Program-made: the position numbers and the translations under genes
The notes under the pieces: model-generated
What the model was told of the DNA's origin: nothing
Seen by the model: only the letters and a program-made list of their open reading frames with translations
Database searches by the model: none
Shown here: positions 11,364-20,000 of the stretch, in pieces
Numbering within the stretch: the first letter of the stretch is position 1
How the letters are laid out: every line of letters begins with the position of its first letter
NCBI GenBank assembly: GCA_021432655.1
Contig: MU271180.1
Span: forward strand, 205,565 to 225,564
Length of the DNA stretch: 20,000 bases
Direction: 5' to 3'
DNA from: Atractiella rhizophila
Taxonomy: Eukaryota

Positions 11364-12766
11364 TTATTCGCTGTCCTCTTCATCTGCTTGTTCCAACCAA
11401 TGGATAAAGTTCTTCGCCTGCTTCTTGACCTTCGCACTCGTCTCCTTATCGACATACTACGTCCCGCAACGCTGTCAGTGAGAGCAGAAGAAAGGCAGAG
11501 GAGGAAGAACGGACCTTCTTGGAGACGTGAGTGCCCCAGTGCAGCAAGACCTCTTCTTCAAGCACGTCCGCTTGGTACAATTTCATCAAGATATTCTGCA
11601 CCGTCTTGTCCCCGTCCGTCAACCACTCGGGATGCTGGAGGCCAATGAAGCGCTCCAATCCTCCCAAAAGGGACTTCTGGTGCTTTTCAGAGGTCGTCAT
11701 CTGCATCCCACTTCCTCAGCACTTGTTCTTCAAGATATTAAGAAAAGTGCAAACCTTCTTCAACAATCCAGCATGTTCGCCAACCTCCTTTGCTGCATCC
11801 TCAGAGAAGAGAACTTGAGCAAGGACCGTCAGTGTTTTGTTCTTCTTCTCGATGCTCATCTCCTTCGCCTTCTTGAAGATCTCCACATCACCTTCCTTAA
11901 TGTTGTCTTTCACCCAGTCTCCAAAAATCTTATAGGGGCTGTCTTCCCCCTCTCCCTCTTCATCGTCTCCATTCATCCCCAAGGAGTTCTTAAACGTGTT
12001 CTCCAACTCCTTCACCCTCTCAGACACATCCGCCGACTCGTCCCAATCCTCGTCCAAGCCTTTGCCATGCTCCTTCTGGATCTCCGCAAGCGTCGGGATA
12101 TTGACTTCTTTCCCAGCAATCGTCTCCTTCTGCTCATCACCATCTCCAGTTTGCACTTCCTCTTCTTCAGGCGGAGTCTTATCGCCCGCAGCTCCACCAA
12201 TCCCATCCGCGGCACCGGAGATGTCCTTCTTCTTCTTCCCGCCCTTCCCCTTCGTTCCACCGCCGGTCGAAGGGGGGTTCTTCAATATAAAAGTAGTCAG
12301 TTTGTGCCTCATGTCCACGCTACCTTTGTGGCCGCACGCTTGGCAGTCTCTGGTGATCATCTCATCTCTGCCAATCACGAGCGTGGTCTCGGGGTTCTTG
12401 CAGGAAGGACAGAGCACGAATTTGTCGATGAAAGCATCCAAGAGTTCGCGGAGACGGTCGGCTTGGTGTGCTCCGTTGACAATGTAGCGGTCGGCGGCAA
12501 TGTCAAACGTGGTTTGTGCGCCTAACTCGCAACCGAAAAACTTTGTAGGATCTGCATCCCGCCCATCACCATCAGTACCACTGTCGTTTGAAATTGTCAG
12601 AAGACGTACAAGTAGCTGGTCTACTGAGGGAGCGCGCAATGTCGCTCATGTTCGGAATGACCGTCTTAATGCCGTTTCCTTTGCCTTCGATCTTGATTTG
12701 AAGAACGGGCATCTTGTACCGATAGAATTTATCGGAGACGTCCCTTCTAATGTTGACGGTCGCCAT
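11364..12766 (-). CDS. TIF5: Eukaryotic translation initiation factor 5 (eIF5)
   Basis: [20 protein letters not shown]...EGKGNGIKT (GAP arginine region). Intron 12609-12552 joins [18 protein letters not shown]. Zinc motif CPSCKNPET...DCQAC. C-terminal W2 domain [15 protein letters not shown]...[32 protein letters not shown], with stop at 11364-11366. Confidence 0.97.
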
Positions 12767-12781
12767 ATTGATTGATGAGTT

Positions 12782-12957
12782 TTACTACGGCCACGGACGA
12801 GTCAGTCAGTTGAGAAGAGATGGAATGAGCAGCAAAGACGTACAGATGATTGAGGTATGTGAGGTATATGGCCTTTGTGCCGTTCGTGAATGTTCAATAA
12901 TTTCGACTTCGAAGAGTAGATTGTGGATCGGAGAAATTGCGTGCTCTGAAAAGGCAT
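12782..12957 (-). promoter_or_regulatory. Putative poor-context uORF (38 codons) in the spliced eIF5 5' leader
   Basis: uAUG at 12957 in context ttcATGc. A leader intron runs GTACGT(12843)...CTGAC...CCGTAG(12785). After splicing, codon 39 is TAA (12784-12782), 15 nt before the strong main start aatATGg. Confidence 0.6.
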
Positions 12958-14087
12958 GAAACTGTTCTCTCCTTGCTTCTTGGGTTTGATGGGTTCCGAG
13001 GTGAAGGTTCAAAGGTGTTGATCTGTAGCTTTGGTCGTCAGCACGTTGAAGTATGAGCATAAACATGATAAAGAAGGAAGGCAGCGAATAAACATTAGAT
13101 GACGTGACACTGAACAGGATTTCGACGAGAAATCAGGGGGAACATTATCCTGCCGGTCCAATAATGAAAGGAAAATGTGTTTCCCGAGGTTAAGGCTAGA
13201 TTGACTGCTCCAAAGAATGTAAAAGGCCGATAGAGAAATCGCTTTAAGCTTCTCAAAGGTGGAACCCAACCCGAAAACTGTGAAGATGAAAAATAATGGA
13301 ATGCTGGAGACACACAGTGGGACCAAGTTCCCGGCCAAATCGTTGGGACACTAGACATATGAAAAGGGAACCAGGCAGTACAGGGCAATACAATTACAAA
13401 GGCTTCAATTTATAGGCGCAAATTCTCCATTCATCGCTGAGACAGAAGACAAAGAGCAAACAATACCCTGATCAACACAGAGAAAGCTTCAATCTTTCTG
13501 GAGTATTGTAACCATGATAATTGATTATGGATCGAGGGTTGAGATTTGGCTTTTTCAGAATAAATATTGCCTTCATGACGTGGCCAATGAGACCGCTTCA
13601 TCCGTTTCTGAATTCAGATGCATCCTGCCTCCCGGCCTCCGAACGAGGCCAAAGGGACACGTGTTTGGTCAAAAAAACACGTTCAGCCTACAGTTTTCCA
13701 AACTCCAAACGATGGGTTGAGCTGAGAGGCAGGATGGTAGAGCAGGATAGATGTTTGGGTTGTGTGTTGACACAACCGTTGCCACCTCTTCTATCCGCTC
13801 AAATCTCGCCTTCCTTCGACTCCAACGACACACTCCTCTTCCACACTCAATTTGACGCACAACAGAATGAAAAGGACGCAGATGAAACGAAAACATGATC
13901 CCAACATATTGTAGCATGACCTAGATGGAAAACGACAGACTCACAGTAGCACACGCAGTCGAGTAATCGCTTTTCCCTCCTTTCAGGCGGGGTAGCTCGC
14001 TTCTTCTTTCTCTCTCTCTTGCTCTTGCTTTCCGTGTTCGTTGTTGAAAGAAGAATTGCCACCCTGCTTTGATGACTCCGTTCAAGG

Positions 14088-14104
14088 TTAGGGTTAGGGT
14101 TTTT
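14088..14104. promoter_or_regulatory. (TTAGGG)2 / telo-box-like motif in the divergent eIF5 / coiled-coil gene intergenic region
   Basis: Sequence ttagggttagggttttt, which is AAAAACCCTAACCCTAA on the minus strand. It lies about 130 bp upstream of the ATG at 14231. Function is inferred only. Confidence 0.35.
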
Positions 14105-14230
14105 GCCATTCCACGCCTGCAGTCTCACTTTCGCTCAGGTACTCCGTACGCGCCTGCCCAGTTTCAACACCGTGTCCGCATTCCTGTGACTAGTTGTGCC
14201 AGAAGTCGCGAAGAAGAAGAAGAAGGAAGG

Positions 14231-15961
14231 ATGACGGTCGTGCTGGACTCTCCCAACCTCGAACGGCTCTGGGCTCTCCTCTCCGAACTCTCAGCCCAGC
14301 TGAGCGCGAACAAGGAGCAGTGTGTCGCCTTGCAACGGCAGGCTGAAGAGTTGAAGGTCTCTTTTCCCTCCTACCCCTGTTCCTGTCCCTTCCTTGCTTA
14401 CAACTTGTGTGTGTGGACAATAGGCCCAGGCCGTACATACCAATACTGGCTTCGCCCTCAAGCGGTTCAACGTCGATATCACCCAGGAACGGTTCGAGAG
14501 CGAACTGGAGAGGTCGAACGCTCAGCTGACGGTCGAGAATCAGCAGTTGCATTATGAGAATCGACAGCTGAACGCTCTGTTGAAGGATTATGAGGGGACG
14601 TTGGAGAGCGTCATGGGAAGGTTTAGAGGACTTGCGGTGCGTTTTTATTCTTCGGTTTGGAAGGATGGAGGACTACATCGGAGGAATGTATGTATGGTGG
14701 AGGAGGTTGCGCCTGTTCCCTTCTTCCGCATTTCTACGACCTCCTGTTCATTGCATGACGTTGAAAGCCCATTTCGATTCTTGGGCGAGCACTAGCAAGT
14801 TTCAATGTGTTTTTTCCTTCATGGAACGAGGGTATCGAGAGACCAAAGGATTCTTTCGTCGAGTTGGAGAACGAGCATCCGGAAAATATTTCTGCAATCC
14901 TCACTCAAACTGTGCTCGATATTTGACCCAAAGTGCGTACTCGAGCTGCTTAGAAGCGGAGCAGCCTAGCCTGGGGACAGAAGTCGGGCCATTAGAGTAG
15001 AGATGGAGACTGCGCAACAGGAAGCTGGTGTGTTGCCCTAGTCCATCGTTTTCTTCTCCCCTTCATTTATGCCCTGCCCCTCTTCATGAGAAAGTAAAGG
15101 AGGCAGAGGAGAGGAAGGAATACGCTGTTCGCGCTCCTCGTCCTAGTTGCTGGAGCTCCGAGCATGATTGCCTCTATCTGTCTCGCAGCCCTTGTCCTAG
15201 CTCCTGGGAGGCGAAGGAAGATCGACCGTTGGGATGACGGTGCCAGGTAGTTACCATTACTAGTTGAAATAATGCTGGTGAGGAGCCACGAACAACAAGT
15301 GCTCCTGATTCCTTTTCCCCGTAAACCTGTGCATGAAGCTAGCATTCCTTTCCCAGTTGATTTTAAATGAAAGTCGCGTCTCCTTTGTTGTTCAATGGCA
15401 CATGTGAGAGAACGATAATTATCCAAACCAGTGGATTAGAGGTTGGAAAAAGACAATGTGAAGTAGAATTTTGAAGGAGTTTTTTAACGAAGAACTGACA
15501 AAGTTTGAACAACATGAAATGGTGCTGATACGTTCCTCTAGCATTCGACGCAGCAACATGAACTTGCACTTCACCGCCATTACGAATCACTTCTCCTTAA
15601 TTACATGCAGCAACAAGCCTCGCCCACTTCCCCCTACAACTCCCAATTCGAACACGAACGAGAACCTTCCAAAGAACAAAACCAGCCTAACGGCTTCTAC
15701 ACCTCCCCGTCTTCTTCACAAATTTACGATTCGCCGGCGTCGGCACCGTCCGCTCAACAGCTCCAGCAATCCAATTTAGAGCGGAGAGGATCGACGGCAT
15801 CCGTTTCTGGACTCCCGCCTGAGATGGAGCGATCGTTGGACCGTCTCTCGACTTTGCTGAGGAAAACGATGCGGTCGTTGAACGACGAGGAATTCGAAGC
15901 GGAAGACGACGAACCCCTGTCTCCGATCACGTCTCCAATCCAAGCACCGACTTCGCCTCAA
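14231..15961 (+). CDS. Small coiled-coil protein, probably a SIKE/FGFR1OP2-like STRIPAK subunit (SCI1/Csc4-like); 5' portion
   Basis: Exon 14231-14356 (MTVVLDSPNLERLWALLSELSAQLSANKEQCVALQRQAEELK). Exon 14424-14636 (AQAVHTNTGFALKRFNVDITQERFESELERSNAQLTVENQQLHYENRQLNALLKDYEGTLESVMGRFRGLA). Intron 14637-15541 of 905 nt. Exon from 15542 (HSTQQHELALHRHYESLLL...LDRLSTLLRKTMRSLND...APTSPQ). Gene structure is well supported; the family name comes from recalled motif similarity only. Confidence 0.75.
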
Positions 15962-17637
15962 CGCGCAAAGACCGCCTTGAGCGCTTATTTCTACAACCGT
16001 ATCCTTTGTAGCGCTACCTATTCCAGCACTAGCAAATTGTACCGATTAAGACTGTTGTTTAGTTCCGTTCGGGGTTTTGCTTTTCTCTCGTGCGTGCGCA
16101 GTTCTGTGGAAACTTGCGCAGCTCGTGTAGCAGTTCTGCAAGTCGACTTCTTTCTCCCCTCCGGCCGGCATCTTAACATCTACTCCTGCCCTTAATCCAG
16201 TCAGAGGTACTGGAGGCTTTGTAGCGGGTGGTAAGGTCTCACGTAAAAACCTGTCCTAAAAAGACCAACTTTCTAATCCGACTCTTTCTTACTCTGCTCC
16301 TCACACAGCTTCGGTAAGGTTTAGGCAGCGTAGACGACCGCTAGGTAGCTCTAAAGCACCGCCAACCAGGAAGGTTTCGAGGGAGGTTTGTAACTTGACG
16401 AAATGCACGAGGAGGTTGGAAAAGTTGTGCAGGAGGCAGTCGGTATGTACGAATTACTGTGGTATGGGTGGAGGAAGGTCGAGCGTGTAGGTTTGGACGC
16501 AAGGAGACGGCCATTACCTTATACTTGCTTTATCTTAAAGGACCTGGGTCAACCCGAACTTGAGCCTTGGGAACGGCTGTTGTAGGGTAGGGAAGTTGTA
16601 GGCAAATCCAGGTCAAATTTAAACACTAATCCCAAACCCTGCTTAACGCTTCCTTCCTCGTATCACCTGGTACCGCACCAAACATCTACGCCTACTACCG
16701 AGCGACTTCCGTTGCTCTACAACCCCCTCGACCGCGCCCTTGAACTCTCCCTTCACAAAAACCTCCGCCCAAGGACTCAAGCTCTGGCTGACGGATGGAG
16801 GGTCCACTTCACGGTGCGACCTAGCACTAGTTTCTACAACTCTTTAGGCTAAACAAGGAGCGAGCGAAAGCGTTTGGAACGCTACTAGACACGCTGAAGA
16901 AACTTCACCAGAAGCTCCGCAAAACCAAAAGGGACTTTCACGGGTGGTGCGTATGATAATTGGGTTCTCATTACAAATAGAGGTCGACATAGTTAGTTGT
17001 CTCAGGTCTGTTTTGTCGCTCCAGAGCGGGGCTCTCACATCCGTCGCAAAGCACGATTAACCCACAAGAGCACGCTTGGTCGTAAGAGTTCTACAGAGAC
17101 TTAAGATTACGGTCGCTATACAAGCTCATGCGGAAGTGTCCTCCCAGCTAGAGTACCACCTGGTTCTAAGGCAGGTCGAGACTTCTTAGGAACCAGCTGT
17201 CTAAGAGACTGTTGACGTAAGCACATGGTGGAACCGTCATAGACCTGAAAAGGAACGCGTGCTGGATCTGGCACAGAAGTAAGTACCACGAGTTAGTTGA
17301 CACTTAGTGAGTGCGCTATGTCGAGTAGGTAGGTTCAAAATTAGCTCAAGAGTAGGAAGGTCAGGCGACGTAATATGCAACAATCGAGCTCACCGTCAAG
17401 CTGGAGTCCATACAATTACAAACCGGCATCTAGGAGGTTGTGGTGTTGCCCACTAAGGTTCAGCTCAAAAAGTGGATCACCGTCCAACGCGACGTTGCCA
17501 AACTTCAAACCCCTGTGGCAAGAACTTCAACGGAGAACAACTATAAAAACGAAACACAAAACTTAGCTCAGCCCTCACCGTCCACCACCGCCCCTAGGAG
17601 AGAAGTAACGTCAGAAGAAACAGAAGGAGAAGCAGTA
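15962..17637. pseudogene. N-terminal part of a FunK1-type (Pkinase_fungal) protein kinase, mirror-reversed and frameshifted
   Basis: Right-to-left from ATG 17637: MTKRKTKKTAMKRGSPPPP...WMDELYR, intron 17313-17265, ...ELDGILV...NISLALEF/QLARNAAYTLGARPRCFVWTLLI...EEQIGF...ILFRSYSITGRGTQVW...VIKHVW...LDDVLDAFKGVLT, intron 16096-16050, QLAMLNDHDLI-HRDVSYAN-IFI (16017-15994). Frame breaks occur near 17099, 16250 and 16158, and near 16600 unless an intron covers it. Confidence 0.8.
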
Positions 17638-18378
17638 GATCTCCTCTCCGCTCAGTTACGTCCTCTGACCTACTAATTATAATGCTACACGCGACAGGGT
17701 CAGTAAACTGAGCTTTCTAGTTTACGGTACTATAGGACGGTACTTCGTAGTGGGAGAAGAGAGGAGACGTCCAACAGGAGGTCGTGTGAGATAAGGACGC
17801 CCTTGCTGAAAGTAGTAAGGCAAAAAAGACGACGGAGTCCCATGTCCGTTAAACGCTCTATTGAGGTGAAGCGCTGAGTAGAGGAAGGTTTCAGCTGTTG
17901 GCTTTTGGAAATAGGGGGAGGACTAGGGTTTGATGAGAGGTGTCGCGTTTGTGGTTGCGTTAGGAAATGGAGGCAGTACAACGAAAGACTCAGCGTAAGC
18001 GTAACTGCATCACCGTCGTCCAACTCGACATGTCCGCGCGTAAAAACTGCGAGAAGTGGAACCACTCCTCCAGGAAACGACTAGTAAGAGTAGTGTCTGA
18101 CACGCTTCACTCACCTATTATAAACCATTAAAATATTGGAACTAATTTGTTGGAAGTCGTCAAGGCTGAGACTCCATTGCTCAGTAATGTAAGTTCAACA
18201 CGCACCACTCCCCTTGCCTTCTCCCTCTACTACAACCGAACAACACTACACCCTAAGAGTCCAAATCGTACTGCCTCATGACAAGTGTGAGCCCTGGTAG
18301 CTTTGCCTCCCTTTACAAACACTTCTTGTTTGCTCTTACTTACTCTGTTTTTGAGTACTGTGCGTAAGGTTTGAGTAG

Positions 18379-18927
18379 AGTGAGCAGAAGTAGGAATTAC
18401 TCCGGGTAGAGGTTGAGGCCAAGGTGGAGGGCTAGGGATTTGTATTGTAGTAGCTCGAGGTAGCGGTAGAGGCCGAAGTGCTTTACCCCTAATAGGTTGT
18501 GGTCGCCCGACGGGTTGAACCGGACTGAAAGAAAGTTTACGCCGAAGCGAGAGGGGTTCGACTTAGGAGGGAAGGTGGGTGAAGGAAGGCGAAGGTGACC
18601 CAGGTTTAGGTTTGGATTTCTTCTCCACTGCCCGCTGCAGGAGAGACGGACGCGAACCCCTCCCCTGGTTAGGAGAGGTCGCGAGCCACCTCCTGAGCTT
18701 CCGCCCGGTGAATTTCTCCCACTGCCACGACCTCCCTCCTCCAGTAGTAAACTTTGCAGGCAGAGCTAGGGGTTGTCGGAAGCGTCGAGGGATAAGAGGA
18801 AAAGGTTGGACACGGAGAGCGAGAGAGCGAGGTTTCGCGACAGCATAAAGCAGTTATGCGGTCAGCTCGGCTACATGGGGTTGACTCGGACTAAGTCCAA
18901 AACATAGCTTGCCTGCAAACATTTCCA
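18379..18927. CDS. C-terminal 182 aa of the coiled-coil gene at 14231, readable only right-to-left uncomplemented
   Basis: 18927 to 18379 reads acc ttt aca aac gtc... = TFTNVRSIQNLNQAQLGYIGSTGVLTKYDSALERESERHRLEKENRELRRLLGIETDVSNDDLLPPAPSPSLSGPP...ELEMGLIKDEDE*. It is in frame with ...cct caa ending at 15961. Confidence 0.9.
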
Positions 18928-19214
18928 NNNNNNNNNNNNNNNNNNNNNNNNNNNNNNNNNNNNNNNNNNNNNNNNNNNNNNNNNNNNNNNNNNNNNNNNN
19001 NNNNNNNNNNNNNNNNNNNNNNNNNNNNNNNNNNNNNNNNNNNNNNNNNNNNNNNNNNNNNNNNNNNNNNNNNNNNNNNNNNNNNNNNNNNNNNNNNNNN
19101 NNNNNNNNNNNNNNNNNNNNNNNNNNNNNNNNNNNNNNNNNNNNNNNNNNNNNNNNNNNNNNNNNNNNNNNNNNNNNNNNNNNNNNNNNNNNNNNNNNNN
19201 NNNNNNNNNNNNNN
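18928..19214. other. Assembly gap, 287 N
   Basis: Run of N directly abutting the reversed block. Confidence 1.
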
Positions 19215-19216
19215 CG

Positions 19217-19912
19217 TACGAGCAGTCGGTTATGGATGACATCGAGTCCGTAATCTACTGTGTTATCTACTTTTTCTGCAATTTCTATCCGGGCACTGAA
19301 GGACGGCTCGTGAGGCGAGATTGGAGCCGCAAGCCGGACACACCGACAGGAGAAGGGACTGGAAGGACCTTCAGTGGTTCCAAGGAACTGGAACAGAATG
19401 CCGAGGCGGATGAACGATCCTCGTCACATCACAGCGTCAAATCCAGGAAGGAACGATCCTCAACCCTCCACGGCGTCAAATCTGCAAAGGATCGATACTC
19501 GACACTTCGGAGCACCAAATCTGCAAAGGAAAAATCCTCAACAATTCAAAGCGTCAAATTCGTTCCACAGAACGGTGACTATCCGCTCCAACTGTGGTTG
19601 ACTTTGGAAAGTGCCTTCCACGTGAAATCATTCCTTCTCAACACTTTCAAACCAGCCAGTTTACCAGCCTTTACCAAGCTTCTGAAGCAACGTCTGGTTG
19701 ACGATGGGCGTTGGAACCAAGATCACATCACACGCTTATTATGGGAACTCACTCGGCCACTTCAACTTCAGTCGGAAGATATTGTAAACGGCATTTATTG
19801 GCGTCCACTCTTTCCCGATGGATGCGATGGAAAAGCAGTTGTCAAGGGCATTGTTGGAAAGATGGTGGACGCTTTGGAGCGGGGAAAGAAGAGATTTAAT
19901 GGGAAGCTGTAA
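19217..19912 (+). CDS. C-terminal lobe of the FunK1-type fungal kinase
   Basis: YEQSVMDDIESVIYCVIYFFC matches the FunK1 subdomain IX pattern (H/D)DLESFFYVLLW. The frame is open to TAA at 19910-19912. It is the logical continuation of the reversed HRDVSYAN segment across the gap. Confidence 0.8.
   Translation, partial: YEQSVMDDIESVIYCVIYFFCNFYPGTEGRLVRRDWSRKPDTPTGEGTGRTFSGSKELEQNAEADERSSSHHSVKSRKERSSTLHGVKSAKDRYSTLRSTKSAKEKSSTIQSVKFVPQNGDYPLQLWLTLESAFHVKSFLLNTFKPASLPAFTKLLKQRLVDDGRWNQDHITRLLWELTRPLQLQSEDIVNGIYWRPLFPDGCDGKAVVKGIVGKMVDALERGKKRFNGKL
19412..19567 (+). repeat. 4 x 39-bp degenerate tandem repeat (13-aa Ser/Lys-rich unit) within the kinase C-lobe
   Basis: ERSSSHHSVKSRK / ERSSTLHGVKSAK / DRYSTLRSTKSAK / EKSSTIQSVKFVP, with units starting at 19412, 19451, 19490 and 19529. 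Confidence 0.9.
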
Positions 19913-20000
19913 GTTGCCTTCGTCTCCATCAGCTGAACGAGGTATAACGTCCACACCAGTGATCCCTCTGAAGAGTTCGACTTTGAACCTGCCTCGTAAG

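What the first reader, a model, noticed from the sequence alone, without database searches (positions are those of the whole stretch)
15962..18927. 3-kb mirror-reversed block: genes readable only backwards without complementing
Seen: reading the + strand from 18927 down to 15962 without complementing gives normal fungal gene sequence, including a 549-nt open frame, GT-AG introns of 49 and 47 nt, and kinase motifs GRGT, VIKHVW and HRDVSYAN. Flipping the block in place restores both junctions. On the left, ...cct caa|acc ttt aca... continues the 14231 gene in frame. On the right, the kinase catalytic loop runs into the N gap and resumes at DDIES. Established: real inversions give the reverse COMPLEMENT, and no known replication or recombination process yields a kb-scale reversal alone. 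Inference: this is a gap-extension/scaffolding software error (it abuts the gap exactly) or an in-silico edit. Standard six-frame annotation cannot see it, and it corrupts two gene models. If raw reads supported it, it would be unprecedented.
Basis: partly seen in the sequence, partly recalled or inferred. Interest (0 to 1): 0.9.

Follow-up and report, generated by a model that had tools for sequence, protein, structure and literature searches.

The report
Backwards-written patch beside assembly gap
About 3 kb of this fungal genome record, next to an assembly gap, was written into the public assembly backwards without complementing; this is a data error and not biology, and it hides the end of one gene and the front of a kinase gene from normal annotation.

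Summary
Window 15976-18927, which ends at the 287-N gap, makes sense only when read from 18927 downwards without complementing.

- **Composition.** K-mer statistics favour the reversed reading by 94-144 bits. Five of 5 control chunks favour the written direction.
- **Kinase.** A paralogous fungal kinase from the same contig matches the reversed block at E=3.9e-111. It matches the block as written, on either strand, at E=0.13 or worse.
- **SIKE gene.** 88 of 148 SIKE-family relatives hit the reversed block and 0 of 148 hit it as written.
- **Reads.** Read-derived contigs of two coded runs follow the window to 15975.
- **Public record.** An NCBI protein (BT69DRAFT_1345076, Atractiella rhizophila) is translated straight through the junction. 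The error is in the deposited assembly, not an edit made for this scan.

Verdict: a software or handling artefact of extending a contig into a gap, not a real feature. Biological interest is low. Its practical value is as a data-quality flag and a possible sign of a systematic pipeline bug.

The parts
14231..15975 (+). Forward part of the SIKE-family gene: exon 1 14231-14356, intron 14357-14423 (67 nt), exon 2 14424-14636, intron 14637-15541 (905 nt), exon 3 from 15542. The bases 15962-15975 belong here, not to the reversed block.
   Evidence: PF05769 SIKE on exon 2 (24.6 bits, cut-off 24.3). phmmer found 166 relatives at E<=1e-10. Spliced contigs of X3 and X4 join 14354>14422 and 14635>15541 with GT..AG ends. 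X3 record 23 lies on 15545-15975 with no gaps.
15976..18927 (.). The block written backwards without complementing (2952 nt). The real order is 18927 down to 15976, placed between 15975 and the gap.
   Evidence: K-mer tests. Homologue hits only to the reversed string. Loose ends behind 15975 in X1 and X3 equal the reversal of 18927 downwards, apart from one extra C.
18379..18927 (.). Read downwards: the rest of SIKE-gene exon 3, 182 codons plus a stop, including the conserved second coiled-coil segment.
   Evidence: Open frame. 88 of 148 SIKE-family representatives hit reversed positions about 4-186 in a + frame, best E=1.9e-09; 0 of 148 hit the block as written.
15976..17637 (.). Read downwards from 17637: the front of a FunK1-type fungal protein kinase gene. 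It starts at a candidate ATG at reversed position 1291 and ends at the catalytic-loop region HRDVSYANIFIREF, which is the last codon of the block. Introns lie at 17313 down to 17265 (49 nt) and 16096 down to 16050 (47 nt). Three single-base frame breaks relative to the paralogue lie near 17095, 16597 and 16158.
   Evidence: P0006 residues 4-481 are colinear with reversed positions 1420-2952 at 57-70% identity, E=2e-118 for the best piece. The frames are shown.
18928..19214 (.). Run of 287 N: an assembly gap inside the kinase gene.
   Evidence: The paralogues have 59 residues (177 nt) between ...IREF and YEQSV..., so the gap falls where the flipped-in-place order predicts. Loose ends before 19215/19216 differ among contigs.
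19215..20000 (+). Forward C-terminal part of the same kinase gene, with an intron at 19909-19959.
   Evidence: Translation P0001 is 80-82% identical to P0006 and P0007. Spliced contigs join 19908>19960 with GT..AG ends. P0156 (226 aa) equals 19232-19909 at 100%.

Best explanation
A stretch of consensus sequence that extends the left contig (which ends at 15975) into a gap was written into the scaffold in reversed letter order without complementing. An equivalent error would be a reverse-strand patch that was complemented but not reversed; the resulting string is the same. The real genome reads ...15975, then 18927 down to 15976, then the unsolved gap, then 19215 onwards. The gap lies inside one member of a multi-copy FunK1 kinase family, which plausibly explains why the assembler stalled there. 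The patch also looks like low-quality consensus, with single-base length errors. Shown here: the reversal, its limits, its presence in the public record and the damage to the annotation. Inferred: which program or step did it, and that the patch came from error-prone reads.
For: Reversed k-mer statistics appear only in this block. The same-contig paralogue P0006 matches the reversed string at E=3.9e-111, against a best E of 1.0 (P0006) and 0.13 (P0007) for the block as written on both strands. The match is colinear over residues 4-481 and ends exactly at the block's last codon. 88 of 148 SIKE relatives hit the reversed block and 0 of 148 hit it as written. Contigs built from reads of two coded runs (X1, marked DNA?; X3, which behaves as RNA because it skips introns) lie on the window up to 15975. 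They then run on for 48 and 255 letters. The 30 letters shown agree with the reversal of 18927 downwards: 16 identical, one extra C, then 13 identical. The block ends at the base before the N run. The paralogues' missing 59 residues fit the gap position. The public protein P0005 equals window 15542-16192 at 100%. Low quality is suggested by the CC/CCC difference from the reads and by three single-base frame breaks against the paralogue, two of them in T or C runs.
Against: Only the first 30 letters of each loose end are shown, so the remaining ~2.9 kb is not checked letter by letter against reads. Only Logan contigs were available, not raw reads. X1 and X2 may be the libraries the assembly was made from. 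X2 and X4 list no loose end at 15975. I found no record of how the assembly was made, so the culprit step is unknown. The three frame breaks could instead be real lesions of a decaying kinase paralogue.
Confidence: 0.95

Rival explanations
1. The block was reversed after deposition, as an in-silico edit or planted control made when this window was prepared.
For: The reversal is clean, and the N run could in principle be a mask. No whole genome is held for the window, so the record could not be inspected.
Against: A protein held by NCBI nr under a locus tag of the organism (P0005) is translated from 15542-16192 as written, at 100% identity over residues 114-330. The reversed letters were therefore already there when the public gene models were made.
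Confidence: 0.02
2. It is an ordinary biological or assembly inversion (reverse complement) that merely looks odd.
For: Inversions next to repeats and gaps are common misassemblies.
Against: tblastn reads both strands. The block as written gives no hit better than E=0.13 with the kinase paralogues and 0 of 148 hits with SIKE relatives. All significant hits are to + frames of the plain reversal.
Confidence: 0.005
3. The organism really carries a 3-kb segment in mirror order.
For: None found. It is kept only because contigs, not raw reads, were inspected.
Against: Read contigs continue from 15975 into the un-reversed sequence, including an RNA-like contig of the spliced SIKE transcript. From established DNA chemistry (antiparallel strands), cutting and rejoining a duplex gives the reverse complement, never a plain reversal.
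Confidence: 0.001

Closest known systems
Inversion misassembly (a segment placed as its reverse complement)
   Same: A kb-scale segment in the wrong orientation, next to a repeat-induced gap, breaks gene models at both ends.
   Different: An inversion stays readable on the other strand, and six-frame searches still find its genes. Here neither strand of the written block gives homologue hits, so standard annotation is blind to it.
Gap-filler or contig-extension errors (wrong or low-quality sequence inserted at gap edges)
   Same: The block sits exactly between a contig end and an N run and extends into an unsolved gap. It shows single-base length errors.
   Different: The inserted sequence belongs to the right locus and sits in the right place; only its letter order is wrong. 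I found no printed description of this kind of error in four phrase searches. That such fillers exist and make errors is my own knowledge; no paper was read for it.
Reversed (not complemented) sequences used on purpose as decoys or negative controls
   Same: The string operation is the same. The papers listed by the search for 'reversed but not complemented' use it as a designed control (listing only).
   Different: Those are deliberate and labelled. This one sits unmarked in a deposited genome and its annotation.

Membership tests
Reversed-not-complemented assembly artefact | The plain reversal encodes recognisable genes that are colinear with the flanks | tested here: met
   P0006 residues 4-481 match reversed positions 1420-2952. 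88 of 148 SIKE relatives match reversed positions about 4-186. After the gap the kinase resumes 59 paralogue residues further on.
Reversed-not-complemented assembly artefact | The string as written encodes nothing recognisable on either strand | tested here: met
   Best E=0.13 with P0007 and 1.0 with P0006. 0 of 148 SIKE relatives hit at E<=1e-2.
Reversed-not-complemented assembly artefact | Oligonucleotide statistics are reversed relative to the surrounding DNA | tested here: met
   +94 to +144 bits for the reversed string. 5 of 5 control chunks are negative at both k=4 and k=5. The sliding profile agrees.
Reversed-not-complemented assembly artefact | Sequencing reads support the un-reversed order across the junction | tested here: met
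   Loose ends behind 15975 in X1 (48 letters) and X3 (255 letters) have the same 30-letter consensus. It equals the reversal of 18927 downwards plus one C. This rests on contigs and on 30 letters only.
Reversed-not-complemented assembly artefact | The block lies at a contig end or gap edge | tested here: met
   The block ends at 18927 and the N run is 18928-19214.
Biological inversion | The segment is the reverse complement of the ancestral order, so its genes are readable on the opposite strand | tested here: not met
   There are no minus-strand hits on the block as written.
SIKE family (Pfam PF05769), for the left gene | Match to the family profile above the curated cut-off | tested here: met
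   Exon 2 alone scores 24.6 bits against a cut-off of 24.3, which is marginal. The whole public model P0005 scores 20.1, below the cut-off. phmmer found 418 relatives at E<=1e-3 and 43 at E<=1e-30. Relatives P0022 and P0026 match PF05769.
Fungal protein kinase, Pkinase_fungal / FunK1 (Pfam PF17667), for the right gene | Match to the family profile, with a catalytic-loop HRD...N motif | tested here: met
   The support is indirect. The reversed translation was not handed to Pfam because it is a changed sequence. It is 57-70% identical over residues 4-481 to P0006, which scores 124 bits on PF17667 (residues 430-557), and it carries HRDVSYAN. The post-gap piece P0001 alone matches no Pfam family.

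The most novel reading that the evidence does not exclude
The same bug wrote other gap-edge extensions backwards, in this assembly and in other public assemblies made with the same pipeline. Six-frame annotation and ordinary inversion checks cannot see such blocks, so an unknown number of public gene models would be silently truncated or given nonsense tails. A k-mer reversal score together with a search of reversed gap flanks would find them.
Probability: 0.3. Interest if true: 0.4.

Novelty: not a real feature. Interest (0 to 1): 0.18.

Why it matters
It has no biological significance, because the organism does not carry mirror-order DNA. The practical points are these.

- A public genome record holds about 3 kb that no standard tool can interpret.
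- One deposited protein carries a nonsense tail of about 72 residues and lacks its real 180-odd C-terminal residues, including a conserved coiled-coil segment.
- A kinase gene is reduced to a 226-aa fragment.
- Such proteins enter nr and clustered databases and look like orphan sequence.
- If the error is systematic, the cheap detector used here (a reversal log-likelihood of k-mers at gap edges) would be worth running over assemblies from the same pipeline.

Tried and rejected
- **Whole genome.** None is held for the window, so other gap flanks could not be scanned.
- **Read cover.** All 12 bins from 16014 to 19025 have depth 0 in 4 of 4 runs laid (X1-X4, out of 8 runs listed), while the flanks are covered.
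- **RNA holders.** No RNA holder is listed. X3 and X4 behave as RNA only in that their contigs skip GT..AG introns.
Rejected in favour of 15975/15976, because X3 record 23 lies on 15545-15975 without gaps before it diverges. The paralogue alignment also ends at ...IREF, the last codon of the 2952-nt block. The next 14 bases reversed would read RQKR, against QTDT and QTNS in the paralogues.
- **Pfam on window pieces.** P0001 and P0003 match 0 families.
- **Reversed translations.** They were not sent to Pfam, structure or database tools, because they are changed sequences. I used local tblastn with fetched homologues instead.
- **Literature.** Four phrase searches for a printed description of reversed-but-not-complemented assembly errors found only unrelated uses (listings only). 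Two searches and one passage look-up for the assembly method of this genome found nothing (listings, passages of PMC13347111 only).
- **Earlier findings of the scan.** Four look-ups returned nothing relevant.

Full report
**What is in the window.** The finding covers 15962-18927, which ends at the base before a run of 287 N (18928-19214). To the left lies a + strand gene that starts at 14231. Its second exon matches the SIKE family (PF05769, 24.6 bits against a cut-off of 24.3). To the right of the gap, 19217-19912 translates to the C-terminal part of a protein (P0001). That part is 80-82% identical to two proteins named as hypothetical proteins of Atractiella rhizophila, on a contig of 316,639 bases. 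Both carry Pkinase_fungal, PF17667 (P0006 and P0007).

**Checking the observation.**
- As written, the longest stop-to-stop frames in the block are 122, 116 and 110 aa. Reversed without complementing, they are 185, 182, 146 and 138 aa.
- Markov models of order 1 to 5, trained on both strands of the rest of the window, prefer the reversed string by 93.5 to 143.9 bits. Five of 5 control chunks of the same size, each left out of training in turn, prefer the written direction by 54.2-98.2 bits at k=4 and 48.9-129.9 bits at k=5.
- In a sliding 4-mer score, all 11 windows of 500 nt from 16001 to 19000 score -32 to -66. The lowest score anywhere else is -5.5. That model was trained on the outside sequence, so the outside values are flattered.

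**Do the reversed letters encode real genes?** I did not hand the reversed translation to any database tool. I fetched homologues of the flanking, normally written gene parts and compared them locally with the block in both forms. tblastn reads both strands of each form.
- *Kinase.* P0006 hits the reversed block at E=3.9e-111 (65.6% identity over 305 residues), with further pieces at about 6e-85. Against the block as written, the best hits are E=1.0 (P0006) and E=0.13 (P0007). The match is colinear over residues 4-481 of P0006 and reversed positions 1420-2952.
- *Left gene.* A full HMMER scan with the public model P0005 returned 418 relatives at E<=1e-3. Of the 148 listed relatives other than the two same-organism proteins, 88 hit the reversed block at reversed positions about 4-186 in a + frame (best E=1.9e-09). 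None of the 148 hits the block as written at E<=1e-2.

Both genes are therefore present, but only in the reversed reading.

**Reads.** One search for sequencing runs with 13000-18927 listed 8 runs, and the best three hold 0.30-0.33 of the sampled words. I laid 4 of the 8 (X1-X4) on 12500-20000. All are Logan contigs, not raw reads.
- In X1 and in X3, a contig lies on the window up to 15975 and then runs on for 48 and 255 letters that fit nothing in the stretch. X3 record 23 covers 15545-15975 with 3 differing letters and no gaps.
- Both loose ends have the same 30-letter consensus. Compared by eye with the reversal of 18927 downwards printed, the first 16 letters are identical, then the reads have one extra C (CCC against CC), then 13 letters are identical.
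- X3 and X4 also skip GT..AG introns at 14357-14423, 14637-15541 and 19909-19959. They behave as transcript contigs, and the X3 contig crossing 15975 is the spliced SIKE transcript.
- The depth over the block itself is reported under Tried and rejected, as the tool requires.

**Corrected limits.** The reads put the junction at 15975/15976, so the block is 15976-18927 (2952 nt).
- The 14 genuine bases plus the C missing from the window make 15 bases.
- Independent support comes from the paralogue alignment, which ends exactly at the last codon of the 2952-nt block. The paralogues then have 59 residues before YEQSV..., where the window resumes after the gap. That is 177 nt, against 287 N.

**Where the error lives.** P0005, held by NCBI nr as hypothetical protein BT69DRAFT_1345076 of Atractiella rhizophila, has 330 residues. 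Its residues 114-330 equal window 15542-16192 at 100%. The public model thus reads about 72 codons of the backwards block as its C-terminus. The reversal was in the assembly when it was annotated, which rules out an edit made for this scan. For the kinase, the only exact-match product in the protein collection is P0156 (226 aa), equal to 19232-19909. It starts at the first Met after the gap and stops inside the RNA-supported intron.

**How it most likely arose (inferred).** The block fills exactly the space between a contig end and a gap that was never closed. That is what a contig-extension or gap-filling step produces. An extension built base by base and not turned round gives exactly this string. 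So does a reverse-strand patch that is complemented but not reversed. The two cannot be told apart from the result.

The block also looks like poor consensus. There is one single-base length difference from the reads within the only 30 letters that could be compared. There are also three single-base frame breaks against the paralogue's reading, near window 17095, 16597 (TT where TTT is needed) and 16158 (a C run). The breaks could instead be real lesions in a decaying paralogue. The gap lies in a gene family with at least six further members or fragments at 76-92% identity in the same organism. The contigs entering the gap from the right disagree with each other, which fits a repeat-induced gap. 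I could not find how the assembly was made.

**Comparison with what is known.** A true inversion is a reverse complement and stays readable on the other strand. That was tested and not met. Plain reversal of a duplex segment is excluded by the antiparallel structure of DNA (established knowledge). Four phrase searches found no printed account of this kind of assembly error (listings only). That is weak evidence, since such bugs are rarely published.

**Verdict.** This is not a biological feature, and interest is low. Its practical value is as a correction to a public record and a possible pointer to a pipeline bug, which I could not test because the genome is not held.

Noticed in passing
window 14637-15541: The SIKE-family gene has a 905-nt GT..AG intron, long compared with its 67-nt first intron. 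Spliced contigs of X3 and X4 support it, and X3 shows low-depth contigs inside it.
   Followed up: partly
window 12300-13945, minus strand: An eIF5/eIF2-beta-domain gene (PF01873, E=2.1e-24 and 1.3e-09) lies here. RNA-like contigs skip 58, 59 and 922 nt (CT..AC on the + strand, so minus-strand GT..AG). The 922-nt intron lies upstream of the start codon.
   Followed up: partly
window 13046-13320: DNA-type contigs of X1 and X2 join 13046 to 13320, skipping 273 nt (TG..TG). This looks like a length polymorphism or second haplotype inside the long intron of the eIF5 gene.
   Followed up: no
proteins P0004, P0158, P0159 (a contig of 49,090 bases, not in the window): A second contig of the same organism carries another SIKE copy (155-aa model, identical over residues 1-113, then reading into the intron). 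It also carries FunK1 kinase pieces that are 76% identical to the window's. This is a diverged haplotype or a segmental duplication of the locus.
   Followed up: partly
protein P0006 (same 316,639-base contig, outside the window): The 1427-aa model contains the kinase unit twice: residues 4-482 and 636-1126 both match the reversed block, and residues 541-693 and 1185-1425 both match 19217 onwards. It is probably two tandem FunK1 genes fused into one model.
   Followed up: no
window 19909-19959: RNA-like contigs splice out 51 nt here. The stop codon at 19910-19912 that ends the 226-aa called product therefore lies in an intron, and the kinase continues beyond 19960.
   Followed up: partly
window 13995-14041: read laying flagged a CT-rich simple repeat between the two divergent genes as a place where reads seem cut.
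   Followed up: no
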